Assembly (NCBI GenBank): GCA_965232515.1
Contig: CBDDPY010000002.1
Span: 2,080,001 to 2,144,000, forward strand
Length of the DNA: 64,000 nucleotides
DNA from: Alphaproteobacteria bacterium
GTDB taxonomy: Bacteria; Pseudomonadota; Alphaproteobacteria; GCA-2731375
Reading direction: 5' to 3'
Shown piece after piece: positions 39,379 through 63,281 of this stretch (positions are counted from its first letter, which is position 1; the number at the start of each line of letters is the position of its first letter). The notes below the pieces were generated by a model. It was not told where the DNA came from and did not search any database. It saw nothing but the letters and a program-made list of their open reading frames with translations. The position numbers and the translations under genes are program-made.

Positions 39379-39960
39379 ATGTCGAGAAAGCCCGCGACAA
39401 AGTACAAAACCAAAGCCCTCGATGCGGATACTTGGCCGGACTTCGCGCGTCTGGTCGAGGCGAACAACGGTGTCTGGGGCGGCTGTTGGTGCATGTGGTA
39501 TCACGGAAAGGGCGAAGGCTCGGACGACTCCCCGGCGAGAAAACGCGAGGCGAAGGAATGCCGCGTTCGGGAAGGACGGGCGCATGCCTCCCTGGTCTTT
39601 CATGGTACGGACTGCGTCGGCTGGTGCCAGTTCGGGTCGCCGGACGAGCTTCCGCGAATCCATAATCAGCGTGCCTATCTGGCGACCGATCCGATGCTGC
39701 CCGACTGGCGGATCACCTGCTTCTTTTCCGGCAAGGGCCATCGCGGCGCCGGCGTGGCGTCCGTCGCGCTCGAGGGGGCGATCGGGCAGATCAGGAAGAT
39801 GGGCGGCGGACGCATCGAGGGATACCCGGAAGACATCGAGGGCCGAAAGGCTTCGCCGGCATTCCTGTTCAACGGAGCGCTGCACATGTTCGAGCGCCTG
39901 GGCTTCGAGCGATCACGGAAGATCGGTAAGCACAAGTGGGTGGTGACGCTGAACGTGTAG
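39379..39960 (+). CDS. GNAT-family acetyltransferase
   Basis: GGCWCMWY, VGWCQFG, ITCFF..KGHRGAGVA, IEGYP. Confidence 0.88.
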   Translation: MSRKPATKYKTKALDADTWPDFARLVEANNGVWGGCWCMWYHGKGEGSDDSPARKREAKECRVREGRAHASLVFHGTDCVGWCQFGSPDELPRIHNQRAYLATDPMLPDWRITCFFSGKGHRGAGVASVALEGAIGQIRKMGGGRIEGYPEDIEGRKASPAFLFNGALHMFERLGFERSRKIGKHKWVVTLNV

Positions 39961-40046
39961 TCTTCTTCGTCCCGGTCTGGACGATATGCTGCCCCGAAAT
40001 AGAGAAGCCTGGCGCACTCTGACAAGGCTGCGGTGACCGAGACCCG

Positions 40047-40610
40047 TCACCTTCTCGGCTTCGCCGCAAGCGGAAGATCATCGAATAGCCCGGGCGCTTC
40101 GCCAATTTGCGCGCCTTCGATCGCGAGCATCCTGAGCTTCGTCGCAATACCACCAGCCGCCGAAAAGCCGGTGAGCCTGCCGCCCGCGCCGATGACACGA
40201 TGGCACGGCACGATGATCGGCAACGGGTTGTGGCCGAGGGCCTGTCCGACATCGCGGGCAAGCCGCTTGTCGCCGAGTTGCGACGCGATGGCGCCATAGG
40301 TCGATGTCTCGCCGGCCGGGATCGCGCGCGTTGCGGCATAGACCTGTGCTGCAAACGGATCGATCCCGCCGAAGTCGCAGACGATGGAGGTAAGATCCGT
40401 CCCTTCCCCCTCGAGCAGAGCGGTCATCGACTCGATGGCGCGACGAATAGCGGTCGGCGGCTCGCCCTTTGTGGCGCCCGTTCGCGCGGCCAGACGGCGG
40501 CCGGTGTCAGCAGAGCTTTTGTCCGGAAGGCGCGTTGCGACGACCGCGTCATTGCACCAGGCAATGCCGCAGTCACCGAGCGGAGTCGGAAAGAGCGAGA
40601 AGTGCACCAT
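40047..40610 (-). CDS. ogt: methylated-DNA--protein-cysteine methyltransferase
   Basis: IPAGETSTYG, VGQALGHNP.PIIVPCHRV active site. Confidence 0.93.
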   Translation of the reverse strand: MVHFSLFPTPLGDCGIAWCNDAVVATRLPDKSSADTGRRLAARTGATKGEPPTAIRRAIESMTALLEGEGTDLTSIVCDFGGIDPFAAQVYAATRAIPAGETSTYGAIASQLGDKRLARDVGQALGHNPLPIIVPCHRVIGAGGRLTGFSAAGGIATKLRMLAIEGAQIGEAPGLFDDLPLAAKPRR

Positions 40611-40764
40611 GGGTCGAGCGTTATGCACGCTTGTACACCAACTGAAGTCCTGTTTCCGAACGCTCTTCAGATGAACGAGATGCAGCCTGCCCGGCTGCAC
40701 AGAGCTTCGCGACTTTAACCTTCGGGCGATTTCGATGCATATCAGTCCTCGATCTTGCCGCCGA

Positions 40765-42018
40765 CTACGCCTTCGTGCGAGCCATTTTGGGCGGTCGGGG
40801 CAGGCGCCAGAACGCGAGCGTGCCGAGCGCGACCAATGCGCAGACCGTCAGCAGCGCGGCGCTCAGCGGGTCGATGACTTGCCCCGGCGCAAGCGATGCC
40901 GCCACGCCGCTGAGCCACTGCACCGCGGCGACGCCGGAGAACATCGCCATCGTGAACACGCTGAGCGCGCGCCCCGTCATCCTGGCGGGATATGCGGATC
41001 GCAAGTCGGCGTACTGCAGGACGATGTAGCCCGCGAAGAAGCCGTTGAAGATCGCAAGGGCAACATCGAAGAACGCTCCCACGCCGACTGCGAGCGCCGC
41101 GAACTGCGCCGCATAGGCTGCACTGCAGCCGATAATGATGGCGCGTCGCGCGCGGCCGCCAGGGTCGAAGCGCCCCAAGACGAGAGGCCCTAGCAGCGCG
41201 GCGAGCGAGACCGCGAACGCGACGTGGCCGACCTCGACAAGCGAGAGGCCGTGGCGCTGCGCGAGCAGCGGGCCCAGCCACAGCCCGCGCAGCGCGAGGA
41301 ACGCCGCGTAGGTGACTGCGGCCAGGCAGCAGATGCCGGCGGTGTAGGGCCTTAAGAGGATCGAGCCGAGATCGCGCAGCGCCGCGCCGAGGGTCTGGCC
41401 TTGAGCCCGCGACGGCATGGGCTCGTCGCGGACGCACCAGAGCACGGCGATCCAGCTCGCGGCGGCGAGCAAGGTCAGCGCAACGAAGCCCGCACGCCAC
41501 GACCAGGTTGCGATCACCCACGCAAGCGGCGTGCTAGTGATCAGCATGCCAACCCCGCCGACCCCCATCACGACGCCGGACACGGCCGCGAAGCGATCGG
41601 CCGGGTAGCGCCGGGAAATGAAAACCATCGCCGCGAGCAGCGCCGGCGCGCAGCCGAAACCGATCAGCCATTGGCCGGCGACGAGCATGGCTAAACTGTT
41701 CGCGCTGGCTGACACCGCGCTGCCGGCCATCGCGAGCACGAACGCGACGACGATGGTGCGTCGTGGCCCATGCCGGTCGAGCGCGACCCCAACCGCCGGC
41801 TGTGCGAGCGCGAAGGCGAGGTGAAACGCGCCCGCCACTGCGCCGAGTGCCTGTGCTGAGGCCCCGAACTCGGCCGCGAGCGGGTCGGCAGTGATCGTCA
41901 CGACGGTGCGAAAGGCGTGGCTGAGGATGAAGACCGCGATCAGCGCTGCGAGCATCAGCGACGTGCGGCGGCGCTCGCGTGCGGCCGTAGCCTCGGTGGC
42001 CAACACAGTCGTCCTCAC
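40765..42018 (-). CDS. MFS transporter
   Basis: About 12 TM; G.ALDRHGPRR motif A; WR.GF. Confidence 0.92.
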   Translation of the reverse strand: MRTTVLATEATAARERRRTSLMLAALIAVFILSHAFRTVVTITADPLAAEFGASAQALGAVAGAFHLAFALAQPAVGVALDRHGPRRTIVVAFVLAMAGSAVSASANSLAMLVAGQWLIGFGCAPALLAAMVFISRRYPADRFAAVSGVVMGVGGVGMLITSTPLAWVIATWSWRAGFVALTLLAAASWIAVLWCVRDEPMPSRAQGQTLGAALRDLGSILLRPYTAGICCLAAVTYAAFLALRGLWLGPLLAQRHGLSLVEVGHVAFAVSLAALLGPLVLGRFDPGGRARRAIIIGCSAAYAAQFAALAVGVGAFFDVALAIFNGFFAGYIVLQYADLRSAYPARMTGRALSVFTMAMFSGVAAVQWLSGVAASLAPGQVIDPLSAALLTVCALVALGTLAFWRLPRPPKMARTKA

Positions 42019-42187
42019 GACGGCAACGGTTCCAAGGTTGAAGCCGGCGTCGGGGTACGGCCTGCTGGGGCGCGGGAGCCCCCGCTCCAGCCTTCCGCCA
42101 TGCGAGCGTCCGGACGCGGGCTAGCTGGAGCATTCGCTCCACAACGTCGGCGATCAGGCGCGAGGCTCATGAGGCGTGGGCCATGGG

Positions 42188-42802
42188 TCACTTCACGGCA
42201 AAGACGCGGTGGATGGGGCCGCCATCGCCCGTTCGGGATTTGGTCACGGCTATGACGTTGTTAAGCCATGTATAGCGGCGATCGCCGGTCTCGAATTGCG
42301 GCGCCGCACGGAAGTAGTAGCGCCATGCGCCTGCGGGGTCGTCCGGTTTTTCGAGATCGGTCGCATACTCGGCGTCTTCCGGCGCCGACCAGAACCGCCC
42401 TTGCCAATAGACGTAGAGCATTGCTTTGTCGTGTGTCTCCAGGCAGAAGCGCACATCAAGGACGCCCGTCCCATCTGGTCGAATGCGTACCCAGTCCGCG
42501 CCTGCGTCCGGCACAACACGCCCGCGCAGGTGGGGCCCTTCGAACGCGCCGCCCTTTACGAGATAGATGAGGCGCCTGCCTTCGGATATCGGCCCCACGT
42601 CCAGCGGTGGAAGATGAAGCTGGACACGCGCTTCGAACAGGAACTCCAACTCGGGAGGGCTGTGCGCGTCCCAGCCGGCGGCGCTGAGTGTCAGGCCGCC
42701 GGCGCTCGGTTCCAGGGTATGCGCGTTGCCACGCCCAACAAGCGCGGTTGCGGCATAAAGTCCCGCGCCGACAAACATATTTCTACGTATCGTATCTGGC
42801 AT
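42188..42802 (-). CDS. DUF3237-family protein with Tat-like leader
   Basis: GGAFEGPHLRGRV.P..GADW, YYFRAAPQFETGD..Y.WLN; N-terminal IRRNMF plus hydrophobic stretch. Confidence 0.85.
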   Translation of the reverse strand: MPDTIRRNMFVGAGLYAATALVGRGNAHTLEPSAGGLTLSAAGWDAHSPPELEFLFEARVQLHLPPLDVGPISEGRRLIYLVKGGAFEGPHLRGRVVPDAGADWVRIRPDGTGVLDVRFCLETHDKAMLYVYWQGRFWSAPEDAEYATDLEKPDDPAGAWRYYFRAAPQFETGDRRYTWLNNVIAVTKSRTGDGGPIHRVFAVK

Positions 42803-42895
42803 CTGTTGCCCTCCGCCCGGGTCACACTCAATTCGGGTTGGCGCCCGCCGACCTTGGCGGCGCCATGCGGCCACTGCTAAGCCACGGCGCCAATC

Positions 42896-42946
42896 ATGTG
42901 CGCCACGCACATATTGTCAAGTTGAAATTCGTGCGCGCCGCACATA
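42896..42946. promoter_or_regulatory. double GTGCG-N3-CGCAC operator/promoter cassette, copy 2
   Basis: ATGTGCG-CCA-CGCACAT, GTCAAGTTGAAA, GTGCG-CGC-CGCACATAAT; between divergent DUF3237 and MarR genes. Confidence 0.75.
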
Positions 42947-42957
42947 ATCTACGACGG

Positions 42958-43464
42958 ATGATCGACCGCAACGCCAATCTGCTCGGTGTCGTCGGGCTTG
43001 CCGTCGCCGACCGCATCGGAGACGTGGCGCGCGACGTCCTTCGTCACGGCGGTGAAACCCCCGCAGCACTGGTTGTCATCGGATACGGCTCCGGCCCCTC
43101 CAACGATCAGCTGCGACGCATTCTCGGCTTGTCCCACCCGGGTACCGTGCGCCTCGTCGATCGGCTCGTCGCCGATGGCCTCGTTGAGCGTCGCAAGGGG
43201 CGAGACAAACGGGCGATCGCGCTCTACCTCAGCGAGCGGGGCATGGCATTGCGCGAGGAACTCCTGAAGGGACGCCTCGCCGCCATCCGGCCACTGCTGG
43301 CCCCGCTGACCGGCGTGGAGCAGGAGATTCTTGCGGCGCTGCTGCATAAGATGTTGTCTTCGATGGAGACGACGGCGACCGAACGCCGCACGCTCTGTCG
43401 CCTTTGCGATAAGCGCATCTGCACCAACTGCCCCATTCCGGCCGACGCGCGGCCGGAGACATGA
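42958..43464 (+). CDS. MarR-family regulator with C-terminal Cys cluster
   Basis: LGLSHPGTVRLVDRL...GLVERR..DKR; ends CRLCDKRICTNCP. Confidence 0.92.
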   Translation: MIDRNANLLGVVGLAVADRIGDVARDVLRHGGETPAALVVIGYGSGPSNDQLRRILGLSHPGTVRLVDRLVADGLVERRKGRDKRAIALYLSERGMALREELLKGRLAAIRPLLAPLTGVEQEILAALLHKMLSSMETTATERRTLCRLCDKRICTNCPIPADARPET

Positions 43465-43618
43465 ACACTAGACGCGGACATGCATCCCGCCTGGCGACCG
43501 GCCGGATGACGCACGCGTCACCCGACGCTTCGCAGACCCGGTGGATCGTCGCCACGGGCAAGGCCCACCCGCGGCCCAGGCGAACCTTGGCTGCGGCGGC
43601 AACGGCGAGCGCGCCGCA

Positions 43619-44185
43619 TCACGGGACGAGATGCCCGATCAGAAGCTTCATGAACAGCGCCGGCACAAACCACTCGAGTCCGGGCGTCGCGCCCAGCACG
43701 CCAAGCACCAGCCCGATTGCGACCAGAGAACACGTCACGGCGATCGGCAGCTTCAGATAGCGCGGCGCGGCAAGCACCGCGAATAGTGCGATGACGAGGC
43801 ATGCGGACACCGCCGCCGCATAGGTCGCGTCAAACCCTTCGCCCCGGAACGCCCACGCGACAACGCCGATGTGCAACAGGTGAAGGCAGGTGAAGGACAC
43901 ATGCCGGCCGGCGGTCACATCGAGCCGGTGATACCAACGCTTCGTCGTTTCTGTTGCGAAGCAGACCGCGCCGCCGATGACATCGAGCGCGATGACGGCG
44001 CCCAGAAGAATGAGCCAGATGTTTGCGCCCTGCGCGGCGAGCGCCCAAGCCGCGAGGATCGCGCCTGCGGTGCCCGAACCGATCACCAGGAAGTTTTCCT
44101 GCCAACGCATGCCCGGACCGACAAGACGGTCCCACGATCCTGGCAGACCCGTACGGGGCGCGGGAATAGCAACAGACGTCTCCAT
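43619..44185 (-). CDS. hypothetical membrane protein
   Basis: Several TMs; WDRLVGPG, TTKRWYH; good RBS (GAGAGGA). Confidence 0.7.
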   Translation of the reverse strand: METSVAIPAPRTGLPGSWDRLVGPGMRWQENFLVIGSGTAGAILAAWALAAQGANIWLILLGAVIALDVIGGAVCFATETTKRWYHRLDVTAGRHVSFTCLHLLHIGVVAWAFRGEGFDATYAAAVSACLVIALFAVLAAPRYLKLPIAVTCSLVAIGLVLGVLGATPGLEWFVPALFMKLLIGHLVP

Positions 44186-44590
44186 ATGTATCCTCTCAAA
44201 CGGGGAACCGGTCCGTTGGCCCCGAAGGCCAATCCCCGACCCATCCCAATGACCATTGGCATGACGCGGCGCGCGTTAACCTGCTCAAGACGTCTGTCAT
44301 CACTGGCACGGCTTCAAGACAAACGCCGCCAACATGCGGCGACCGGTCGCACTGTTTCTGGCGTCTCTCAGGCAGACACATTCGGCAACGGATCGCCATC
44401 TGGCCGCGGCGCGTCCGCACCGTGCCGGCGTGGACGTGCAGATGCCGGGCGCGGACGAGGTCGGGCGCGCCGTCATGCACCCGGGCCAGGCGCGTGGCGG
44501 CCGATGTTCTCATAGACGGGACGCTGCGGTTCTCCGTATTTTCCAGGGCAATCTTCCGTCGGAGCAAGACGAACGGCCGAGAGGTGCCGC

Positions 44591-46663
44591 ATGCGAGATC
44601 CGCGATATGACGTCCTGTTCGAACCGGTCAGAATCGGCCCGCTGACGACCCGCAACCGGTTCTATCAGGTGCCGCACTGCACGGGCATGGGCCATCGCTA
44701 TTCCCGCGGCGAGGCGCGATTGCGCGGCATCAAGGCCGAGGGCGGCTGGGGCGTGGTGTCCACCCAGGAAACCGAAATCCACCCGAGCTCCGACCTGACC
44801 CCGGCCAACGAGGGACGCCTGTGGGACGACGGCGACGCGCCCGCGTTGCGCGCCGTCGCCGATGCCGTGCATGAGCATGGCAGCCTCGCGGCCATTCAGC
44901 TGGTCCACAACGGCCTGCATTCGGCGAACCGTTACAGCCGGACGCCGCCGCTTGCCCCATCGCACTGTGTTGTCGATTGCGACGATCCCGTTCAGGCGCG
45001 CGCCATGGACAAAGCCGACATCCAGGCGTTTCGCCGCTGGCACCGCGACGCCGCGCGACGCGCCAGGGAAATGGGCTTCGACATTATCTATGTCTATGCC
45101 GGCCATGACATGACGCTGCTACAGCATTTCCTGCTGGCCCGACACAACCACCGGACCGACGAATATGGCGGGTCCTTCGAAAACCGGCTGCGTCTTTTCC
45201 GTGAAGTGATCGCGGAGACGAAAGAAGCGGCAGGCGACCGTTGCGCCGTCGCGGTGCGTCTCGCGGTCGACGAGTTCATGGACGGCGAAGGATTTCGCCA
45301 CGACCATGAAGGCCGGGACATCATCGCGGCGCTGGCCGAAGAACCCGATCTTTGGGACGTGAACCTCTCGGACTGGGCAAATGACAGCCAGACCTCCCGG
45401 TTTTCCGACGAGGGCTTTCAGGAGCCCTACACGGCGTTCGTCAAATCGCTGACGACAAAGCCGGTGGTCGGTGTCGGCCGCTACACGTCGCCGGACTCGA
45501 TGGTGCGCGTCGTCAGGCAAGGCCGGCTCGATCTCATTGGCGCGGCGCGTCCGTCGATATCCGATCCGTTCCTGCCGAAGAAGATCGAAGAAGGCCGCAT
45601 CGACGACATCCGCGAGTGCATCGGCTGCAACATCTGCACCGCCAGCGACAACGTCTCGATGCCGATCCGCTGCACGCAGAACCCGACCATGGGCCAGGAA
45701 TGGCGGCGCGGCTGGCACCCGGAAATCATCCCGCCGCTGAAGGCGCCCGAAGCGCATCTGATCGTCGGCGGCGGCCCCGCCGGCCTGGAGGCCGCGCGGG
45801 CGCTCGGACAGCGCGGCGCGACCGTGATCCTTGCCGAGAGCGGCCGCGAATGGGGCGGGCGCGTCGCCCGCGAGGCCCGCCTCCCGGGGCTCGCGGGCTG
45901 GGCGCGCGTGCGCGATTGGCGTCTTTCGCAGCTTCAACAAATGCCGAATGTCGAGATGTATCTGGAGAGCGACTTGAGCGCGGCCGACATTCTCGACTAC
46001 GGCATTCGAAACGTCGCCCTTGCCACGGGCGCCAGGTGGCGTCGCGATGGCGTCGGACGCCACCACCGCAAGCCGTTGACCTTCCTGAACCCCGAACGGG
46101 TGTTAACGCCGGACGATCTGATGCAGCCGCAGGCGACCGAACGGCTCGCATCCGGACCGCTGGTGATCTTCGATGACGACCGGTTCTACATGGCGAGCGT
46201 TCTGGCCGAACGGTTGGCGGCATCGGGCCACGATGTTCATTTCGTCACGCCGGCAGCGGTGGTCGCGCCGTGGTCGGTCAATACGCTGGAGCAGGATCGG
46301 ATTCAGACGCGCCTCATTGACCTCGGCGTGAATATCGTCCCGCTGCACGGGTTGCACGGCATGCGGGACGACCGCATCCAACTGTCCTGTGTCTACTCCG
46401 GACGCGTGCGGGAACTGGACTGCGCGACGCTTGTCTCGGTGACGTCGCGCCTGCCCGACGACACGCTCTGGCACGAGCTCACGGGCGCGCGCCGTCACTG
46501 GCCGGATGCCGGCATCGCCTCGGTGGAACGCATCGGCGATTGCCTTGCGCCCGCCCTGATTTCCGATGCCTGTTATTCGGGCCACGCCTATGCGCGTGGC
46601 GTCGAAGATCCGTCATCCGACGTCGTCAACCGGGACGACAGAGTGCAAGGACTGACCGGATGA
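44591..46663 (+). CDS. trimethylamine/histamine dehydrogenase-family iron-sulfur flavoprotein
   Basis: NRFYQVPHC (FMN-linked Cys), YVYAGH, RTDEYGGSFENR, CIGCNIC...C 4Fe-4S, GGGPAG. Confidence 0.92.
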   Translation: MRDPRYDVLFEPVRIGPLTTRNRFYQVPHCTGMGHRYSRGEARLRGIKAEGGWGVVSTQETEIHPSSDLTPANEGRLWDDGDAPALRAVADAVHEHGSLAAIQLVHNGLHSANRYSRTPPLAPSHCVVDCDDPVQARAMDKADIQAFRRWHRDAARRAREMGFDIIYVYAGHDMTLLQHFLLARHNHRTDEYGGSFENRLRLFREVIAETKEAAGDRCAVAVRLAVDEFMDGEGFRHDHEGRDIIAALAEEPDLWDVNLSDWANDSQTSRFSDEGFQEPYTAFVKSLTTKPVVGVGRYTSPDSMVRVVRQGRLDLIGAARPSISDPFLPKKIEEGRIDDIRECIGCNICTASDNVSMPIRCTQNPTMGQEWRRGWHPEIIPPLKAPEAHLIVGGGPAGLEAARALGQRGATVILAESGREWGGRVAREARLPGLAGWARVRDWRLSQLQQMPNVEMYLESDLSAADILDYGIRNVALATGARWRRDGVGRHHRKPLTFLNPERVLTPDDLMQPQATERLASGPLVIFDDDRFYMASVLAERLAASGHDVHFVTPAAVVAPWSVNTLEQDRIQTRLIDLGVNIVPLHGLHGMRDDRIQLSCVYSGRVRELDCATLVSVTSRLPDDTLWHELTGARRHWPDAGIASVERIGDCLAPALISDACYSGHAYARGVEDPSSDVVNRDDRVQGLTG

Positions 46664-46686
46664 CATACCGATAACGGCGCCTGGCC

Positions 46687-47559
46687 TCACGCCGCGCGCC
46701 GGCGCTCCCGATACATGGCGTAGAGGCCGCCGGCCACGATGGCGACGACGCCGATCACCGTCCAGTGCTCGGGCCGTTCATTGAAAACAAGCCAGCCAAT
46801 CAACAAGGCAAACGCCACCGCCGAGTAGGTAAAGGGCTGCAAGGCCGATGCCTGTCCACGACGCAGCGCCGCGATCAGCCCGAAATGACCGGCGGTATTG
46901 AAAACCCCCGCCAGCAGCATCCACGTCCAGGTTTCGGCGTCTTCGGGGTGCCGCCAATCCCACGGCGCGATCAGCCCCGTCACCGCGAACATGGCGCAGC
47001 CCGTCCATAACAGCGTCGTTGCTTCACTGTCGTGGCGGCTCAACGCGCGCAGCAGAACCTGATAGACGCCCCACAGCAAGACACCCGATATCGGCAACAG
47101 GGTAAGCCACCCGAAGGTACCGAATCCGGGGCGCGACACCGCCAGCATGCCGGCGCAACCGACCAACACCGCGATCCATCGATGCACGCCGACCTTCTCG
47201 CCGAGAAATGCCGATGCAAACACCAGCACGACCAACGGCGTTGCGGCGCTGATCCCCGTGACATCGCCCAGCGGCAGGCTGCGGAACGCGAAAATGAATA
47301 CGGCGACTTCGGCCACAAGGATAAGAGAGCGAATTGCCTGAAGCACCTTGCGCTCGCTCCTGAAGGCGCGCTTCAGCCCACCGTGACGGGATATCCAAAT
47401 GAGCGCGATCGCCAGCCAGACCCACGACCGCACCCAAAGCACCTGCCAAACCGAATAGGTCTGCGTCAGGTGCTTTCCGATGGCGTCGCCGACGGTGATG
47501 CAGAACATCGCCATAAGCGTGAGCAGTATTGCGACAAAAGGCGTTCGATCGCCGTCCAT
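46687..47559 (-). CDS. DMT/EamA-family transporter
   Basis: FLGEKVG..RW.AV.VG..G....RPG; QPFTYS; FNERP. Confidence 0.9.
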   Translation of the reverse strand: MDGDRTPFVAILLTLMAMFCITVGDAIGKHLTQTYSVWQVLWVRSWVWLAIALIWISRHGGLKRAFRSERKVLQAIRSLILVAEVAVFIFAFRSLPLGDVTGISAATPLVVLVFASAFLGEKVGVHRWIAVLVGCAGMLAVSRPGFGTFGWLTLLPISGVLLWGVYQVLLRALSRHDSEATTLLWTGCAMFAVTGLIAPWDWRHPEDAETWTWMLLAGVFNTAGHFGLIAALRRGQASALQPFTYSAVAFALLIGWLVFNERPEHWTVIGVVAIVAGGLYAMYRERRRAA

Positions 47560-47745
47560 TATTCTACTTTCGATTGAATTCACTGAAGGCAGGCGGCGCT
47601 GCCCCTTCGCGGTCGGAGAGGTCCCCTTCGTTCGGGAAACGAGGATAGTGGCGGGTTCGGCGTGGCAATGGGTAACCGCGATGACGGTCCCGTCGCAAAC
47701 GAGTATATAGACGACCTAGGCATACATTTTTTAGGTCTCGTCGCG

Positions 47746-57701: not shown

Positions 57702-59114
57702 ATGGCCATCGACTATCAGGACCGCATCCCCAACAACGTCGACCTCTCGGACAACCGCCGCCTGCAGCGCGCGCTGGAAGGCTGGCAGCCGGCCTATCTC
57801 GACTGGTGGGGCGACCGCGGGCCGACCGAGTTCCAGGGCTATGACGTCTACCTGCGCACGGCCGTCAGCGTCGAGCCCGGCGGCTGGGCCAACTACGGCT
57901 ACGTGAAGATGCCGGACTACCGTTGGGGCATCTTCCTCGCCGACCCCGAGGAAGACCGCCGCATCGGCTTCGGCGACCATATGGGCGAGCCGGCCTGGCA
58001 GGACGTGCCGGGCGAGTATCGTGGCGTACTGCGCCGGTTGATCGTGACGCAGGGCGACACCGAGCCGGCGTCCGTCGAGCAGCAGCGTCACCTCGGCGCC
58101 ACCTGCCCCTCGCTCTACGACCTGCGGAACCTGTTCCAGGTCAACGTCGAGGAAGGCCGCCACCTCTGGGCCATGGTCTACCTGCTGCAGGCCTATTTCG
58201 GCCGCGACGGCCGCGAGGAGGCCGACATGCTGCTTGAGCGCTCGTCCGGCGACGAGGACAAGCCGCGAATCTTGGGGGCCTTCAACGAGAAGACGCCGGA
58301 CTGGCTGTCCTTCTACATGTTCACCTTCTTCACCGACCGCGACGGCAAGTTCCAGCTCGCGAGCCTGGCCGAATCCGGCTTCGATCCGCTGTCGCGCACC
58401 TGCCGCTTCATGCTGACCGAAGAGGCCCACCACATGTTCGTCGGCGAGACCGGCGTCGGCCGCGTTGTCCAGCGCACCTGCGAGCTGATGCGCGAGCACG
58501 ACACCGAGGACGTGCGCCCGCACGGCGGCGTGCCGCTGTCGCTGCTGCAGAAGTATCTCAACTTCCACTTCTCGGTCTCGCTCGACCTGTTCGGCTCCGA
58601 GCTGTCGACCAACGCCGCCAATTACTACACCATGGGCATCAAGGGCCGGTTCCAGGAGGACAAGCGGAAAGACGACCACAAGCTGGTGCACGCCACTTAC
58701 CCGATCCTCGAATGCCGTGACGGCCGCTTCGAATCCGTCGACGAGCCAGCGCTGACAACCGTCAACGAGGCGCTGCGCGACGACTACATCGCCGACTGCC
58801 AGCGCGGCGTGAACCGCTGGAACAAGGTGATTGCCGATGCCGGTATCGACGTGACGCTGACCCTGCCGCACCGCGCCTTCCACCGCGCCATCGGCAGCTT
58901 CGCCGACATCACCGTCACCCCCGACGGCAAGCTGATCGCCCGCGAGGATTGGGAAGCCAACCGCGACAACTGGCTGCCCACCGCCGAAGACGAAGCCTTC
59001 GTCGCCAGCCTCATGCACCAAGTCGTCGAGCCCGGCAAATACGCCGCCTGGATCGCCCCACCCGCCCGCGGCATCAACAACCAACCGATCGACTTCGAGT
59101 ATGTGAGGATGTGA
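57702..59114 (+). CDS. boxB: benzoyl-CoA 2,3-epoxidase oxygenase subunit
   Basis: IPNNVDL, TQGDTEPASVEQQ, diiron EEGRH and EEAHH. Confidence 0.96.
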   Translation: MAIDYQDRIPNNVDLSDNRRLQRALEGWQPAYLDWWGDRGPTEFQGYDVYLRTAVSVEPGGWANYGYVKMPDYRWGIFLADPEEDRRIGFGDHMGEPAWQDVPGEYRGVLRRLIVTQGDTEPASVEQQRHLGATCPSLYDLRNLFQVNVEEGRHLWAMVYLLQAYFGRDGREEADMLLERSSGDEDKPRILGAFNEKTPDWLSFYMFTFFTDRDGKFQLASLAESGFDPLSRTCRFMLTEEAHHMFVGETGVGRVVQRTCELMREHDTEDVRPHGGVPLSLLQKYLNFHFSVSLDLFGSELSTNAANYYTMGIKGRFQEDKRKDDHKLVHATYPILECRDGRFESVDEPALTTVNEALRDDYIADCQRGVNRWNKVIADAGIDVTLTLPHRAFHRAIGSFADITVTPDGKLIAREDWEANRDNWLPTAEDEAFVASLMHQVVEPGKYAAWIAPPARGINNQPIDFEYVRM

Positions 59115-59154
59115 CAGCACACGGCGAAGGCAGCAACTATCGACGGCCATTCAA

Positions 59155-61992
59155 TCAAACTGTTTCCACTTCGGAAAAACCTGCGGCGGCACGGATGTCC
59201 TGCGGCGTCAGCTCGCCAATGACCTTCTGGAGCTCCCTGCCGCTAAGGATGCGCTCCAGGTCCTTGTCAATATCCCCTCGACCGTCCGGCTCTATCGCGT
59301 TCGGGTGATTTTTCAGGTAGTCAGCCACCGCCGGCCAGCGCAACTGCACGATCAGCCAACGTGCCAGCGCGTTCCTGTGCGGCGTGAAGCCCTCCATCGT
59401 CCGGGCGGCGCGTGTAAAGTTGTAGGCCATGACGAACCGCTTGATAAAGCGTGGGTTCGCATCCAACAGCGTCGCGTACGGCGTCAGAATATGAGCGGTC
59501 GCTTGGCTTAGCTCCGCATCTTGAAACCGCGCCATCGCGTCCACGACCAGATCCGCGTGTTGTGACTCGTCCTCTCGCAAAATATCGAGCACCTCTTCCT
59601 CCGAAGTGCTTCTCGCGATCCGTGCCCTGCGTTCCGCCAGAACCGTACCATCATTCGACTGCGCGTCGGCGCCGGACGCGACGGCCGCCGTCAGCGCCGG
59701 AGTCGGTTCGGTCTCATCTCTCAGCAGCTTTCGTAAGAAACTGTCCTTCTGCGCATTGCTCATCGCCGGCACCGGCACTGTGACTTGAAACAGCTTTTCG
59801 AGGAACTGATAGCCCAACGGCCGGCCGGGTTCGCCGACAGCCTGCTTGTATGGACCATGCGCGACTTCGTAGCTGCGTCGGAGCCAGCGGCCGTCCGCCG
59901 CCACGATGAAGTAAATCGGCCGATGTGCCACGAATTGCTCGTTATTCGGCGACAGTTGCGGCCGATCGGCATCCAACGGAGCAGAAATCTGTCGACTATC
60001 TAGAGATGGACTGCGCATCAACGTTTGTACGGCGTCGAGCAGATCGACGACGTATTGCTGGTGGCAACGGTCCAGATCGTCGATCACGAACAACACCGGT
60101 CCCGGCGATTGCTTCCGCAACCAGTCGAAATGACCTGCCAGATCGCCCATCGGATTTGCGCGGGTGTCCCCGAACAGCTTCGCGCCACCCGGCGATCCCC
60201 ATGAGAGATACCTCAATATGGTCACCCCCAGAGCACCGACTGTTGCGATAACACTAATCGCCGCTGCCAGTAGCTTGAGAATACTCAAGGAAGAAGTCAG
60301 CCAGTTTTCGCTGCCGCCGGTCGTGATCGAGCCAACCCCAACCGATTTGTAGGCGCTCAGGCCCCCTCCACCAAATCCGCCGAACGGGTCGCCGAAGCCG
60401 ATCCAAGCGAGCACAGTGACGATCACGGCACCGAATAGCCAACCCAATCCGTAGATCGGCACGACAATCCGCGATGTTTCCCGTAACCGCAGCCAGATTC
60501 TGTCGTACCACCGCCGTTGCTGCCGCATGGCGTCTCTCATACTCTCCAACAATCCCCACCACGCCGGCCCGACATGAGCCTGGCGCCATGCGTCGAACTC
60601 GACAATCACCCACGGCGGAAGTTGAGACGTCGTACCGTTCCTAGGCTCGCCTCGTCCGTTGCCGGTTCCGGCGCGCGCCGACGGATCGTTGAACGCGTCG
60701 ACAATGAACTTCGCGATGGTTGATTTACCAGCACCCCAACGGCCCTCGAGCAGAAGCATGAAGGTCTCGGTGTCCGTATCGCAACGCAGCTCATCCAGCT
60801 TCCGCGCGACTGCCTTGGCCAGCTCTCGACGCTGCAAGAGATCGGTCTCGGCCCGCTGATCGTCGACAAGTCGCGTATCATGCCGGGCCCCAGCAATCCT
60901 ATTTCGCGGAAGGTGGGACTTTTCTGCCGATGGCGGCATTTTGGTTGACTGAAATCGCCCTTGCTCGGACAGATTGATAACGTCAGCGATCTTGCCGAGG
61001 CCTCGCCTCTGGAGATCTTCCCGCAAAGTCCCAGGCAACGAGTTGCCGCCAATCCAAAGCATTTCCAACGCAGTTAGCTGGCCGATGGCGTCCGGCAGGG
61101 CGTTCAGCTTGTTGTTGGTGAGGTCAAGAAGTTGCAGCGCCGCGAGCTCGCCGATGGCGTTCGGCAGTTCGTCCACCAGATTGTTGTGGAGGAAAAGCTG
61201 TTGCAGCGCCGTGAGTTGGCCGATGGCCTTCGGCAGTTTGTCCAGTTGGTTGTTGTTGAGGTAAAGCCGTTGCAGCGCTGTGAGTTGGCCGATGGCGTTC
61301 GGCAGTTCGCCCAGCTGGTTGTTGTCGAGATCGAGCATTTCCAACGCCGTTAGCTGGCCGATGGCGTTCGGCAGCGCGTTCAGCTGGTTGTTGGTGAGGT
61401 AAAGCCGTTGCAGCGCCGTGAGCTGGCCGATGGCGTTCGGCAGTTCGTCCAGCTGGTTGTTGTTGAGCCAAAGTATTTCCAGCGCGGTGAGCTGGTCGAT
61501 GACGTCCGGCAGTTCGTCCAACTGGTTGTTGTTGAGGTAAAGCCATCGCAGCGCCGTGAGTTGGCCGATGGCCTTCGGCAGTTTGTCCAGTTGGTTGTTG
61601 TCGAGGTCGAGCTGTTGCAGCGCCGTGAGCTGGCCGATGGCGTCCGGCAGAGCGTTAAGCTGATTGTTGTTGAGGTCAAGATGTTCGAGATGCGGGAAAG
61701 AGTTCAAAAACCGGGTGGGCAGCTTTCTTAACGCGTTGCACAGCTTCTTGTCCTCTTCGCTAAGCGCAAAATATGGCTTTTCTCTGACAGGTTCCGCCGG
61801 CCCGAGATATAGGACGCAGACGTTCGGCAGGGACGGAAGATCGGGGAGCAGACGATAAAAGTCGACCAGACCAAGGCCGCCGAGGTCGAGGGTGTCGGCG
61901 CCGGAGTCGGCGGCCTCGGCGATGCGCCGGAGGGCTTCGACCAAGCCCTCGTCCGAATCGGGCTCGTATATCGTCGCGGTCTCGTCTGCCAT
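59155..61992 (-). CDS. LRR-array plus KAP-family P-loop NTPase fusion protein with two TM segments
   Basis: Nine full 23-aa LRRs; Walker A LEGRWGAGKST, FDAW, Walker B FVIDDLDRC, FLEKLFQV..PVP, NPRFIKR; two hydrophobic segments between Walker A and B. Confidence 0.9.
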   Translation of the reverse strand: MADETATIYEPDSDEGLVEALRRIAEAADSGADTLDLGGLGLVDFYRLLPDLPSLPNVCVLYLGPAEPVREKPYFALSEEDKKLCNALRKLPTRFLNSFPHLEHLDLNNNQLNALPDAIGQLTALQQLDLDNNQLDKLPKAIGQLTALRWLYLNNNQLDELPDVIDQLTALEILWLNNNQLDELPNAIGQLTALQRLYLTNNQLNALPNAIGQLTALEMLDLDNNQLGELPNAIGQLTALQRLYLNNNQLDKLPKAIGQLTALQQLFLHNNLVDELPNAIGELAALQLLDLTNNKLNALPDAIGQLTALEMLWIGGNSLPGTLREDLQRRGLGKIADVINLSEQGRFQSTKMPPSAEKSHLPRNRIAGARHDTRLVDDQRAETDLLQRRELAKAVARKLDELRCDTDTETFMLLLEGRWGAGKSTIAKFIVDAFNDPSARAGTGNGRGEPRNGTTSQLPPWVIVEFDAWRQAHVGPAWWGLLESMRDAMRQQRRWYDRIWLRLRETSRIVVPIYGLGWLFGAVIVTVLAWIGFGDPFGGFGGGGLSAYKSVGVGSITTGGSENWLTSSLSILKLLAAAISVIATVGALGVTILRYLSWGSPGGAKLFGDTRANPMGDLAGHFDWLRKQSPGPVLFVIDDLDRCHQQYVVDLLDAVQTLMRSPSLDSRQISAPLDADRPQLSPNNEQFVAHRPIYFIVAADGRWLRRSYEVAHGPYKQAVGEPGRPLGYQFLEKLFQVTVPVPAMSNAQKDSFLRKLLRDETEPTPALTAAVASGADAQSNDGTVLAERRARIARSTSEEEVLDILREDESQHADLVVDAMARFQDAELSQATAHILTPYATLLDANPRFIKRFVMAYNFTRAARTMEGFTPHRNALARWLIVQLRWPAVADYLKNHPNAIEPDGRGDIDKDLERILSGRELQKVIGELTPQDIRAAAGFSEVETV
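61036..61689 (-). repeat. 69-bp tandem repeat array encoding LRRs (9 full + 1 partial)
   Basis: Unit LxxLxLxNNQLxxLPxAIGQLTA; recurring GCCGATGGC and GTTGTTG every 69 bp. Confidence 0.93.
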
Positions 61993-62198
61993 GTTTCAAA
62001 TTCAGTGGTGGCAGCTTGGGTTTGCAATTTAATGTTGCAAATAGAAGACAACAATTCCGTAATACTATGCAATGCGCACAAGATAAGCGCCCGTCTGCAA
62101 TGAGATGGTGGCCCGCGCCTCCTCGTCATGGAAGTGATGCGTTGATCGGGTGCTTGTAAGCGGAAGCGGAGAGGTTGACGACTACGTGCGCGGGCCGT

Positions 62199-63281
62199 AT
62201 GGCTCGGGTCATGGGTGTGTTGGATGATGGGTGGCACGGGGATCGGCCGGTGTCGGATGTGCCGTTTGTGCTGCGGCGGCGGGTGCATTGGGGGGATGGG
62301 GATGCGGCGCGGATTGTTTATACGGGCCGGTTTGTCGACTTTGCCTTGGAAGCCGCCGATTGCTGGTGGGAGGCGGTGCTGGGGGTGAACTGGTATCAGC
62401 TCAATGTCGAGCATGATCGCGGCACGCCGTTGGTGGCGATGCGGTTCGATTTTGAGCGGCCGTTGCGGCCGGGGGATCGGGTCGATCTGACGGTTGCTGT
62501 CGAGAAGCTGGGGCGGTCGTCGCTGGCGCTTCGGGTCGATGGCGCGAAGGTGGGGGGTGAGCACTGTTTTTCGGCCGTGCTGACCGAGGCGCTGACGGTG
62601 CCGTCGCGGATGAAGGCGACGGCGTTTCCGGACGACTTTCGGCGGCGGATCGAGGGCTATGCGCGGGAATGCGCGCTGCGCGAGACCGGCGTCAGGAGCA
62701 AACGCGAGGTGCTGGATTTCTGGTTCGCGCCACCCGGCTCGCCGGCGCGCGGCACGGTGCGCGATGTCTGGTTCAAGCCGGAGGATCCGGACACGGCCGC
62801 GGCCTTCGATCAAGCGATCCGCGACACGTTCACGGCGACCTACGAGGCGGCGGCGCGGGGCGACCTCGACCATTGGATGGCGACGGCCGACGGCTCGCTG
62901 GCGCTGATCATCGTGCTGGACCAGTTCCCGCGCAACATGTTCCGGAATTCACCCAAAGCCTTCGCGACGGACGCCAAGGCACTGAACGTGCTGGAACATG
63001 TTCTGGAACAGGGCTTCGACCGGGGCACCGGCTATGTCGACGGCATGTTCTTCTACCTGCCGCTGGAGCACAGCGAGGATCTGGAGCATCAGCGGCGCAG
63101 TGTCGCCATGTTCGACCGGTTCAAGGATGATCCGGCCGCCGAGATGGGGTTGTGGGCGGTGCAGCGGCATTTCGAGATCATCGAGCGGTTCGGGCGCTTT
63201 CCGCACCGGAATGATTGCCTCGGCCGGGAGAGCACGGCCGAGGAACTGGCGTTCCTGACGGAGCCGCATTCGTCGTTTTAG
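62199..63281 (+). CDS. 4HBT-type acyl-CoA thioesterase fused to DUF924 domain
   Basis: N-half RVHWGDGDAARIVY...F..PLR.GD (hotdog); C-half VLDFWF, LDQFPRN.FR, FYLPLEHSE, IIERFGRFPHRN; start uncertain. Confidence 0.85.
   Translation: MARVMGVLDDGWHGDRPVSDVPFVLRRRVHWGDGDAARIVYTGRFVDFALEAADCWWEAVLGVNWYQLNVEHDRGTPLVAMRFDFERPLRPGDRVDLTVAVEKLGRSSLALRVDGAKVGGEHCFSAVLTEALTVPSRMKATAFPDDFRRRIEGYARECALRETGVRSKREVLDFWFAPPGSPARGTVRDVWFKPEDPDTAAAFDQAIRDTFTATYEAAARGDLDHWMATADGSLALIIVLDQFPRNMFRNSPKAFATDAKALNVLEHVLEQGFDRGTGYVDGMFFYLPLEHSEDLEHQRRSVAMFDRFKDDPAAEMGLWAVQRHFEIIERFGRFPHRNDCLGRESTAEELAFLTEPHSSF

What the first reader, a model, noticed from the sequence alone, without database searches (positions are those of the whole stretch)
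59155..61992. LRR-KAP NTPase fusion: candidate bacterial NLR-like, membrane-anchored immune receptor
Seen: one 945-aa ORF joins an N-cap (EALRRIAEAADSGADTLDLGGLGL), nine full 23-aa LRRs and a KAP P-loop NTPase with intact Walker A/B and two TM helices inside the NTPase. It is antisense to its neighbours, has visibly more A/T-ending codons than boxB, and has an AT-rich upstream region. Known: KAP NTPases include the phage-exclusion protein PifA; LRRs are the sensors of NLRs and of bacterial Roco (LRR-Roc-COR) proteins, whose N-caps this one resembles. Inference: a Roco-type LRR sensor grafted onto a KAP NTPase, giving a one-gene sensor-switch-membrane effector, possibly for abortive infection. 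I do not know of a characterised system with this architecture.
Basis: partly seen in the sequence, partly recalled or inferred. Interest (0 to 1): 0.85.

Follow-up and report, generated by a model that had tools for sequence, protein, structure and literature searches.

The report
Rare LRR–KAP membrane NTPase gene insert
A single horizontally acquired gene joins a leucine-rich-repeat binding domain, of the kind found in bacterial Roco proteins, to a membrane-inserted KAP ATPase; it is a rare variant of an ATPase family linked to phage defence, and its function is still untested.

Summary
ORF 59155-61992(-) encodes 945 aa: an N-cap, ten 23-aa LRRs (nine full plus a capping repeat), a linker, and a KAP P-loop NTPase (PF07693, 76.6 bits) with Walker A, two hydrophobic helices, then Walker B.

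- **Not a chimera:** two independent assemblies hold the same architecture with a conserved junction (P0002 58%, P0003 46% identity).
- **Acquired, not inherited:** it is a 3.06-kb, low-GC3 single-gene insert between boxB and a thioesterase-DUF924 gene, which are adjacent in five related genomes. The KAP part was found in 0 of 40 relatives.
- **LRR origin:** the LRR module is closest to Roco proteins; the N-cap is 61% identical to an LRR-Roc-COR protein.
- **KAP subfamily:** the KAP module is C-terminal in all 63 relatives examined and N-terminal modules vary (WD40, TIR, TPR, caspase, CHAT). LRR is rare: 2 of the 150 nearest cluster representatives.
- **Independent fusion:** a distant KAP clade made LRR fusions separately.

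A defence or conflict role is inferred only. There is no defence island, no conserved partner gene and no full-length PADLOC match.

Verdict: new variant of a known kind.

The parts
59155..61992 (-). Whole LRR-KAP ORF, 945 aa plus stop codon
   Evidence: ORF list; Pfam LRR families plus KAP_NTPase
61699..61992 (-). N-terminal cap of the LRR module (residues 1-98), no signal peptide-like stretch
   Evidence: sequence.: 73%, 65% and 61% identical to the N-termini of P0002, P0003 and the Roco protein P0065.: no hydrophobic segment here
61009..61698 (-). Ten 23-aa leucine-rich repeats (residues 99-328; nine full plus one capping repeat), encoded by a 69-nt tandem DNA array
   Evidence: register; the most variable positions are 6, 10 and 8 of the repeat; 69-nt spacing, copies 68-87% identical
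60883..61008 (-). Linker between the LRR C-cap and the KAP module (residues 329-370)
   Evidence: the junction aligns in all three LRR-KAP proteins; the linker itself is variable in length
59158..60882 (-). KAP-family P-loop NTPase module (residues 371-945), the constant C-terminal chassis of the subfamily
   Evidence: PF07693, 76.6 bits; KAP module C-terminal in all 63 relatives; 76 of 82 columns conserved at 85% or more among 149 relatives are kept
60721..60744 (-). Walker A (P-loop), residues 417-424
   Evidence: motif at 417; W419, G422 and K423 invariant in 54 sequences
60388..60468 (-). Hydrophobic helix 1 (about residues 509-535), preceded by an Arg-rich stretch
   Evidence: Kyte-Doolittle 19-residue window up to 2.16; flanking sequence
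60301..60387 (-). Gly-rich loop between the two helices (about residues 536-564), inferred periplasmic
   Evidence: sequence; the topology is inferred from the positive-inside rule
60208..60300 (-). Hydrophobic helix 2 (about residues 565-595)
   Evidence: hydropathy up to 2.29.: of 126 relatives with both Walker motifs, 83 have exactly two hydrophobic segments between them
60067..60096 (-). Walker B block, residues 633-642
   Evidence: invariant in the three LRR-KAP proteins; D641 and R642 invariant, D638 and D639 at 90% or more
61993..62174 (.). 182-nt upstream intergenic region, 49% GC, shared with the divergent thioesterase-DUF924 gene; holds a 7-nt inverted repeat at 62021-62041
   Evidence: one search found no sigma-70 consensus promoter in 58900-62400
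59115..62209 (.). Stretch with no counterpart in the same-genus genome G001: the inserted segment that carries the gene
   Evidence: homology to G001 ends at 59114 and resumes at 62210; boxB and the thioesterase-DUF924 gene lie 40-58 nt apart in five related genomes

Best explanation
The gene is a stand-alone, horizontally acquired member of a KAP-family NTPase subfamily. In that subfamily a constant C-terminal, membrane-inserted ATPase module carries interchangeable N-terminal modules.

Shown:
- The architecture, and its conservation in two independent relatives.
- The Roco-type origin of the LRR module.
- Its position as a single-gene insert.
- Retention of the family's conserved residues.

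Inferred topology:
- The N-terminus has no signal peptide-like stretch.
- Basic residues flank the cytoplasmic ends of the two helices.
- So the LRR and both halves of the P-loop domain face the cytoplasm, and only a Gly-rich loop of about 28 residues is outside.

Inferred mechanism:
- The LRR folds back on the NTPase, as it does in bacterial Roco, and holds it off.
- A ligand binds the variable concave face of the LRR. The ligand is most likely a protein of a phage or other invader.
- This releases the KAP module, which binds or hydrolyses NTP and changes its assembly state.
- The output is at the membrane through the helical hairpin (permeability or ion flux, as for PifA or Tmn), because no enzymatic effector domain is present.
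- The outcome would be growth arrest or death of the infected cell, or a block of phage replication.
For: - Architecture and motifs.
- Not chimeric: P0002 (982 aa, 58% identity over 99% of the query) and P0003 (747 aa) come from other sources and share the N-cap, C-cap, junction and KAP module. They differ mainly in repeat number: 10, 11 and 3.
- Both halves have the same atypical GC3, 0.75 and 0.70.
- Acquired: the KAP part was found in 0 of 40 related genomes; four of them match the LRR only. boxB and the thioesterase-DUF924 gene lie 40-58 nt apart in G010, G004, G008, G013 and G012. Homology to the same-genus genome stops at 59114 and resumes at 62210.
- Module swapping: all 63 relatives have the KAP module at the C-terminus, and 62 of 63 have an N-terminal extension of 98-491 aa. 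Domain positions were confirmed for CHAT-KAP, TIR-WD40-KAP, caspase-KAP and TPR-KAP. Of the 58 nearest cluster representatives, 19 carry WD40.
- Tree: the three LRR forms are one clade (SH-aLRT 99), sister to a pair that includes the CHAT form.
- LRR origin: the module is 57% identical over 342 aa to the Roco protein P0065. By my hand count 76 of the 120 listed full-length hits carry COR-A.
- Ligand-face variation: repeat positions 6, 10 and 8 are the most variable.
- Likely functional: 76 of 82 strongly conserved family columns are kept.
- TM hairpin is a family trait: 83 of 126 relatives have exactly two hydrophobic segments between the Walker motifs.
- Literature (passages read): KAP NTPases give Walker-B-dependent phage defence as single genes (PMC13552941). 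PifA is described there as a T7-restricting KAP protein, and as acting by membrane depolarisation and nucleotide leakage in the Tmn preprint (PMC13001434). KAP can replace STAND NTPases in counter-invader systems (PMC8195603). CtRoco LRRs fold back on Roc-COR and swing away on GTP binding (PMC11052575).
Against: - No experiment or expression data bears on this gene.
- No PADLOC model matches beyond the P-loop or Walker B stretches: QatA 2.5e-10 over residues 375-436, PifA 2.8e-4 over 381-436.
- The window holds no defence island: 1 of the 68 other ORFs matches a PADLOC model at 1e-10.
- Relatives have no conserved partner gene. In 44 loci only the KAP gene recurs, in 43, apart from a 14-locus cluster that I read as antisense shadow ORFs of the KAP gene itself; the next cluster is in 8 loci.
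- Of 113 ORFs flanking the KAP gene in 20 relatives' loci, each of 22 PADLOC families matched one ORF at most. Most neighbours look metabolic or regulatory. No control set was run.
- No mobile-element hallmark (integrase, tRNA, flanking direct repeat) marks the insert.
- The EF_KAP study reports that its KAP system does not act by abortive infection, so the outcome is open.
- The role of the LRR in bacterial Roco proteins is regulatory and not known to be immune.
- Topology and oligomerisation could not be modelled.
Confidence: 0.55

Rival explanations
1. It is a membrane-associated signalling or scaffolding NTPase with no immune role. The LRR would bind a host-cell partner, and the KAP module would regulate assembly of a membrane complex, as proposed for KAP proteins in general and for Kidins220 in animals.
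For: - Neighbours of relatives are mostly metabolic or regulatory: P450, hydrolases, HTH regulators.
- Each of the 22 PADLOC families that hit among the 113 flanking ORFs matched one ORF at most.
- There is no defence island in the window.
- There is no full-length defence-model match.
- Bacterial Roco LRRs have a regulatory, intramolecular role.
Against: - Sporadic distribution: the KAP part was found in 0 of 40 relatives.
- A single-gene insert with foreign codon usage.
- The same KAP chassis is fused in relatives to TIR, caspase and CHAT domains, which are typical of conflict systems.
- Repeat number changes between close relatives: 3, 10 and 11.
Confidence: 0.2
2. It is a passenger gene without current function in this host: a recently landed, possibly silent or decaying fragment of foreign DNA.
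For: - A lone gene in a variable slot. Other genomes hold unrelated inserts at the same junction.
- GC3 is 0.72 against 0.88-0.92 for boxB, boxC, the histidine kinase and the rhodanese-like gene.
- No consensus promoter was found.
Against: - An intact 945-codon frame.
- 76 of 82 strongly conserved family columns are kept, including Walker A and B.
- The start codon aligns with homologues.
Confidence: 0.12
3. It is a secreted or injected LRR effector that acts on a eukaryotic host, as the sub-threshold NCBIfam LRR matches to type III effector families might suggest.
For: NCBIfam LRR matches to XopAC, XopAE and XopL at E of 1e-30 to 1e-38.
Against: - All these matches cover only the repeats and lie far below the curated cut-offs (for example 130 bits against 450).
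- The protein has two internal hydrophobic helices and a P-loop domain.
- The nearest LRR relatives are Roco proteins.
- The immediate neighbours identified are aromatic-degradation genes, a histidine kinase, a thioesterase-DUF924 gene and a DUF454 protein. I did not search the window or genome for secretion-system genes.
Confidence: 0.03
4. The LRR-KAP junction is an assembly artefact that joins two unrelated genes.
For: The 69-nt tandem repeats are the kind of sequence on which assemblers err.
Against: - P0002 and P0003, from other sources, have the same order of parts and a conserved junction.
- The LRR and KAP halves have matching GC3.
- The frame is uninterrupted.
- Copy number of the repeats could still be mis-assembled.
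Confidence: 0.01

Closest known systems
KAP family P-loop NTPases (Pfam PF07693; founding description by Aravind et al. 2004, recalled, paper not held)
   Same: Pfam match above the cut-off. Walker A and B are present, with two hydrophobic helices between them. The family has a sporadic distribution and variable accessory modules. [quoted passage not shown]
   Different: This subfamily is distant from the characterised members, and an LRR as the accessory module is rare. I found no paper that describes it.
PifA of the F plasmid (KAP NTPase that excludes phage T7)
   Same: A single-gene KAP protein with a membrane-level outcome: depolarisation and nucleotide leakage, as described in passages of PMC13001434.
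   Different: The PADLOC PifA model matches only residues 381-436 at E=2.8e-4. PifA is said to lack transmembrane helices and has no LRR.
EF_KAP and three other metagenomic KAP proteins (PLoS Biol 2026, PMC13552941; passages read)
   Same: Single-gene KAP NTPases with a helix inside the NTPase domain. Defence needs Walker B and the fused region.
   Different: In those proteins the fused regions of unknown function are C-terminal. Here the variable module is N-terminal and is a recognisable LRR. EF_KAP is reported not to act by abortive infection.
[quoted passage not shown]
   Same: Two helices inserted in the P-loop domain; a cytosolic repeat or solenoid arm senses a phage protein; ATP turnover is coupled to a membrane ion effect. 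This is the best working model for how an LRR-KAP could act.
   Different: It belongs to a different NTPase family: no Tmn model appears among the PADLOC matches at E up to 0.01. Its sensor is an alpha-helical solenoid, not an LRR.
Bacterial Roco proteins (LRR-Roc-COR, for example CtRoco)
   Same: The LRR module with its N-cap is homologous (57-61% identity to P0065) and lies N-terminal to the nucleotide switch. In CtRoco the LRR folds back on the switch and opens with the nucleotide state.
   Different: There is no Roc GTPase and no COR domain. The switch here is a membrane-inserted KAP ATPase.
NLR/STAND immune NTPases (animal and plant NLRs; bacterial Avs and NACHT proteins)
   Same: The logic is a repeat sensor plus an NTP switch plus an output, in one polypeptide.
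   Different: The NTPase is not STAND. The sensor is N-terminal. There is no separate effector domain. LRR sensors are, from my recollection of the literature, rare or absent in bacterial STAND proteins.
QatA of the QatABCD system
   Same: A KAP-type ATPase; it is the best PADLOC and NCBIfam defence hit.
   Different: The match covers only residues 375-437 (37.6 bits in PADLOC; 47.3 bits against a cut-off of 600 in NCBIfam). No PADLOC model other than one mad2 family match was found among the window's other 68 ORFs.
EACC1-caspase two-gene conflict system (Kaur et al. 2020, PMC7159879; passages read)
   Same: A relative of this KAP subfamily (P0039) is named by NCBI 'caspase, EACC1-associated type' and has caspase(12-204)-KAP(300-691). 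This ties the chassis to that network of conflict systems.
   Different: There is no caspase here, and no ORF of 80 aa or more fits in the 182-nt upstream region, so no 5' EACC1-type gene. The main text of that paper does not name KAP.

Membership tests
KAP family P-loop NTPase (PF07693) | Profile match above the curated threshold | tested here: met
   76.6 bits against a cut-off of 20, E=2.5e-21. All 58 nearest relatives scanned also match.
KAP family P-loop NTPase (PF07693) | Intact Walker A and Walker B | tested here: met
   Walker A at 417-424 and Walker B at 633-642. K423, D641 and R642 are invariant in 54 sequences; D638 and D639 are at 90% or more.
KAP family P-loop NTPase (PF07693) | Transmembrane helices inserted within the NTPase domain (feature as recalled from the title of Aravind et al. 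2004) | tested here: met
   Two hydrophobic segments at 509-535 and 565-595, between the Walker motifs. The same pattern occurs in 83 of 126 relatives. This rests on hydropathy only; no topology predictor or structure model was available.
Roco proteins | Roc GTPase domain followed by a COR domain | tested here: not met
   No Roc, Ras or COR family appears among the Pfam matches at E up to 0.01. These domains are found in P0065.
Roco proteins | N-terminal LRR module of the Roco type | tested here: met
   57% identity over 342 aa, and 61% over the first 100 aa, to the LRR-Roc-COR protein P0065. By hand count 76 of the 120 listed hits carry COR-A.
NLR / STAND NTPases | NACHT, NB-ARC or other STAND NTPase domain | tested here: not met
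   NPHP3_N scores 24.7 bits against 24.8 over residues 407-436 only; nSTAND_NTPase5 scores 21.6 against 34.
NLR / STAND NTPases | Sensor repeats C-terminal to the NTPase | tested here: not met
   The LRR is at residues 99-328 and the NTPase runs from residue 371.
PifA | Full-length match to the PifA model | tested here: not met
   PADLOC PifA E=2.8e-4, 17.6 bits, residues 381-436 of 945.
Qat system (QatA) | QatA equivalog score and neighbouring qatB, qatC and qatD genes | tested here: not met
   47.3 bits against a cut-off of 600. The only PADLOC model matched among the 68 other window ORFs is one mad2 family hit.
Tmn / YobI family | Match to a Tmn model | tested here: not met
   No Tmn model is among the six PADLOC families at E up to 0.01.
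Anti-phage defence system (functional class) | Protection against phage that depends on the NTPase | not testable with these tools
   Needs the bench test described under next steps.
Anti-phage defence system (functional class) | Co-location with known defence genes | tested here: not met
   Window: 1 of 68 other ORFs matches PADLOC at 1e-10. Relatives: each of 22 PADLOC families matches at most 1 of 113 flanking ORFs, with no control set.

The most novel reading that the evidence does not exclude
LRR-KAP proteins are membrane-inserted pattern-recognition receptors of bacteria. A cytosolic LRR binds an invader protein and directly gates a KAP ATPase, whose own helical hairpin is the death or arrest effector. 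This would be a one-protein counterpart of the plant resistosome, reached by a different NTPase. Because the same LRR cassette (N-cap included) is shared at about 60% identity with LRR-Roc-COR proteins, it would also imply that bacterial Roco proteins belong to the same pool of exchangeable immune sensors. That would give Roco, whose bacterial function is unknown, an immune role.
Probability: 0.25. Interest if true: 0.8.

Novelty: new variant of a known kind. Interest (0 to 1): 0.5.

Why it matters
LRRs are the classic innate-immune sensors of animals and plants. From my recollection of the literature, they are nearly absent from the NTPase-centred immune proteins described in bacteria, which use TPR, WD40 or unknown sensors.

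This gene carries a clean, intact LRR cassette swapped between two unrelated nucleotide switches: the Roc GTPase and the KAP ATPase. In this case the switch is inserted in the membrane and has no other effector domain.

If it defends against phage, it offers three things:
- a compact single-gene system for asking how a KAP ATPase converts ligand binding into a membrane event;
- a system for asking what bacterial LRRs recognise;
- a system for asking whether bacterial Roco proteins are immune proteins.

If it does not defend, it remains a clear example of domain shuffling on a KAP chassis and of a variable insertion slot beside the box genes.

Tried and rejected
- **Assembly chimera: rejected.** Two independent homologues have a conserved junction.
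- **Vertical inheritance: rejected**.
- **Membership of PifA, QatA, Tmn, Roco or STAND: rejected** on profile scores and missing domains.
- **Type III effector reading: rejected**, because the matches are LRR-only and sub-threshold.
- **Conserved partner gene: none.** Clustering of ORFs of at least 100 aa from 44 related loci gave only the KAP gene (43 loci) and a 14-locus cluster that I read as its antisense shadow ORFs; the next cluster is in 8 loci.
- **Mobile-element boundaries: none.** No convincing flanking direct or inverted repeats.
- **Solved structures:** no significant relative of the KAP part in the PDB by sequence (best E=0.009, cytochrome b5, taken as chance). The profile of A1 matched only WD40 and LRR chains through its N-terminal columns.
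- **PHROGs:** only LRR-type families and one Walker-B-sized match.
- **Metagenome scans:** both scans for close LRR-KAP relatives found nothing.
- **Species-representative genomes:** the scan gave 119 relatives, of which the best 80 were kept. None of the 80 kept matched both the LRR and the KAP part, and the best identity was 35%.
- **Tree:** the tree is the quick version (SH-aLRT only, midpoint root). The careful search did not finish. P0101 sits on a very long branch, so its placement is unsure. Its independence rests also on its separate set of relatives and on its N-cap not matching the query's.
- **Self-association of the KAP module:** no result.
- **Papers:** supplements were not opened. 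The source data of Kaur et al. 2020 may list KAP fusions that I could not see. Aravind et al. 2004 was not held, and what I say of it is recalled or taken from citing passages.

Full report
**Observation.**
The window holds one ATG-started ORF of 945 aa at 59155-61992 on the minus strand.
- Pfam finds LRR families (LRR_14 E=2.1e-48, LRR_4 4e-34, LRR_8 1.6e-33) and KAP_NTPase PF07693 (E=2.5e-21, 76.6 bits against a cut-off of 20).
- Residues 1-98 form an N-terminal cap.
- Residues 99-328 are ten in-register 23-aa repeats, nine full and one capping repeat. Most variation is at repeat positions 6, 10 and 8.
- Walker A lies at 417-424. Two hydrophobic segments lie at about 509-535 and 565-595. The Walker B block lies at 633-642.
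- The gene is antisense to boxB (TIGR03225, 860.7 bits) and boxC (TIGR03222, 915.8 bits) on one side, and to a thioesterase-DUF924 gene on the other.
- Its GC3 is 0.72. That compares with 0.88-0.92 for boxB, boxC, the histidine kinase and the rhodanese-like gene, and 0.82 for the thioesterase-DUF924 gene.
- The LRR half (0.75) and the KAP half (0.70) are alike. The 182-nt upstream region is 49% GC.
- Among the 69 ORFs picked in the window, no other ORF of 300 aa or more has GC3 below 0.77.

**Is the fusion real?**
A search of the 5.8-billion-protein collection with the whole protein returned two proteins from other sources with the same order of parts. P0002 is 982 aa, 58% identical over 99% of the query. 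P0003 is 747 aa, 46% identical over 73%. Their three-way alignment shows an invariant N-cap, C-cap, junction and KAP core. The large differences are in repeat number (10, 11 and 3), the loop between the two helices and two low-complexity loops. An assembly chimera is therefore excluded in practice. The 69-nt tandem array leaves the exact copy number open.

**Is it inherited or acquired?**
- The window's genome has a single KAP locus.
- Of 40 related genomes (completeness 71-100%), none has a match to the KAP part. Four have matches confined to query residues 100-318, the LRR.
- boxB was found in 14 of the 15 same-family genomes searched.
- In five of them (G010, G004, G008, G013, G012) the thioesterase-DUF924 match follows the boxB match after 40-58 nt on the same strand.
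- In the window the two genes are 3.06 kb apart. Homology to the same-genus genome G001 ends at 59114 and resumes at 62210.
- G001 holds a different insert of about 1 kb there, and G002 a different insert of about 3 kb.

The gene is thus a single-gene insert in a variable slot, with foreign codon usage. I found no integrase, tRNA or flanking repeats.

**What is the KAP part related to?**
- A search with residues 360-945 gave 63 clusters.
- In all 63 the KAP module is at the C-terminus, and in 62 it is preceded by 98-491 residues.
- The precomputed domains include LRR, WD40 (often with TIR), TPR, caspase, CHAT, DUF2278, DUF2235 and peptidoglycan-binding domains.
- Positions were confirmed for CHAT(70-310)-KAP, TIR(10-106)-WD40(276-466)-KAP, caspase(12-204)-KAP and TPR(33-183)-KAP.
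- An exhaustive HMMER search of 1.84 billion 50%-cluster representatives with the KAP part found 2237 clusters at E up to 0.001, and 761 at 1e-30.
- Of the best 150, only the query showed two or more LRR motif matches. P0003, with three repeats, is the second LRR form.
- Of the 58 best, all match PF07693 and 19 carry WD40. No LRR family is among the 25 commonest families.
- In a quick maximum-likelihood tree of 54 KAP modules, the three LRR forms are one clade (SH-aLRT 99). That clade is sister (99) to a pair that includes the CHAT form, and the N-terminal modules are scattered over the tree.
- The closest relatives among species-representative genomes are mostly actinomycetes, at 35% identity or less.
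- The query keeps 76 of the 82 columns that are at least 85% conserved among 149 relatives.
- Of 126 relatives in which both Walker motifs were found, 83 have exactly two hydrophobic segments between them.

**What is the LRR part related to?**
- Of the 120 best full-length hits listed, I counted 76 by hand that carry the COR-A domain of Roco proteins. Four carry KAP.
- The first 100 residues are 61% identical to the start of P0065.
- P0065 aligns to the query at 57% identity over 342 aa. Pfam confirms it as LRR-Roc(559-672)-COR-A(738-884)-COR-B(925-1055).

So both halves have close relatives in other architectures, which is the signature of recent module exchange.

A fourth LRR-KAP protein, P0101, has a very divergent KAP module (a long branch). 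Its own 27 relatives include two more LRR-KAP forms (P0310, P0311) beside GUN4-, TIR-, FGE-sulfatase-, pentapeptide- and WD40-KAP forms. The LRR-KAP combination therefore arose at least twice. It remains rare: six 90%-identity clusters were seen here.

**Function.**
Nothing here tests function.

For a conflict or defence role:
- The gene has a sporadic, horizontally acquired, single-gene distribution.
- The same chassis is fused to TIR, caspase and CHAT domains.
- A relative is named 'caspase, EACC1-associated type'. This links it to the conflict systems of Kaur et al. 2020 (passages).
- KAP is stated to replace STAND NTPases in counter-invader systems (PMC8195603, passage).
- DGR-diversified sensor proteins sometimes carry KAP NTPases (bioRxiv 2023.09.22.558884, passage).
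- Experiments show single-gene KAP proteins protecting Enterococcus faecalis in a Walker-B-dependent way (PMC13552941, passages).
- PifA is the classical case.

Against it:
- No PADLOC model matches more than the P-loop or Walker B stretch.
- Only 1 of 68 other ORFs in the window matches PADLOC at 1e-10.
- Relatives share no partner gene.
- Among 113 ORFs flanking 20 relatives, each of 22 PADLOC families matched one ORF at most. Most neighbours look metabolic or regulatory, and I ran no control set.

**Mechanism (inferred).**
- No hydrophobic segment or signal-like stretch lies in the N-terminal 500 residues.
- Arginine-rich stretches precede helix 1, and basic residues follow helix 2. The loop between the helices is Gly-rich and nearly uncharged.
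- By the positive-inside rule, the LRR and both halves of the P-loop domain are cytoplasmic.
- In CtRoco the N-terminal LRR folds back on Roc-COR and swings away with the nucleotide state (PMC11052575, passages).
- By analogy, I propose that the LRR holds the KAP module off until a ligand binds its variable concave face.
- With no enzymatic effector domain present, the output is most likely at the membrane through the hairpin. PifA does this by depolarisation and leakage. The unrelated YobI-family protein Tmn couples ATP turnover to Mg2+ export after sensing a phage protein with a cytosolic solenoid arm (PMC13001434, abstract and passages).
- Whether the result is abortive infection is open. 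EF_KAP is reported not to act that way.

**Comparison and novelty.**
- The protein is a member of the KAP family by every feature I could test.
- It is not a Roco protein (no Roc-COR) and not a STAND/NLR protein. It is not a member of the PifA, QatA or Tmn families.
- It works, on my reading, like an NLR or like Tmn, but that is analogy.
- I found no paper that describes an LRR-KAP protein. Full-text searches: 'KAP NTPase' with 'leucine-rich repeat' gave 0 papers. 'KAP', 'P-loop', 'LRR' and 'anti-phage' gave 5 papers, of which 4 were listed; I checked the passages of two, and in neither is an LRR tied to KAP. I also ran a search on KAP terms alone and one on Roco terms.
- The founding KAP paper was not held, and supplements were closed, so an earlier mention cannot be excluded.
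- I rate it a new variant of a known kind, of moderate interest.

**Limits.**
- The tree is the quick version.
- Hydropathy is my only evidence for the membrane helices.

Noticed in passing
window 59115-62209; L010 (G002), L011 (G001), L014 (G015): The junction between boxB and the thioesterase-DUF924 gene is a variable slot. The two genes are adjacent (40-58 nt between matches) in five related genomes. The slot holds unrelated inserts in others: about 1 kb with an 82-aa ORF and REP-like repeats in G001, about 3 kb with three unrelated ORFs in G002, and about 12 kb in G015.
   Followed up: partly
window 62021-62041: A perfect 7-nt inverted repeat with a 7-nt spacer lies 29-50 nt upstream of the ATG, in the 49% GC intergenic region. 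It could be an operator, or chance in AT-rich DNA. No sigma-70 consensus promoter and no obvious Shine-Dalgarno sequence were seen.
   Followed up: no
window 60989-61747: The LRR coding DNA is a 69-nt tandem array, with copies 68-87% identical to the reference copy. Close homologues have 3, 10 and 11 repeats, so copy number changes quickly and could also be mis-assembled.
   Followed up: partly
window about 39379-47583: This is a second stretch of ORFs with lowered GC3 (0.49-0.86, most of them 0.80 or below, against about 0.85-0.95 for most of the window). It may be another acquired segment.
   Followed up: no
window, one ORF not identified by the tally: One of the 68 other window ORFs matches the PADLOC mad2 family (E=2.1e-22). 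The tally does not say which ORF it is.
   Followed up: no
P0101, P0310, P0311 and relatives: A distant KAP clade carries its own LRR fusions. The clade also has GUN4-KAP forms named from Nostoc and Aulosira, and TIR-, FGE-sulfatase- and pentapeptide-repeat-KAP forms.
   Followed up: partly
window 62175-62209: Similarity of the thioesterase-DUF924 gene to its G001 orthologue starts 35 nt inside the listed ORF, and the protein match starts at residue 10. The true start codon may therefore lie downstream of 62175.
   Followed up: no
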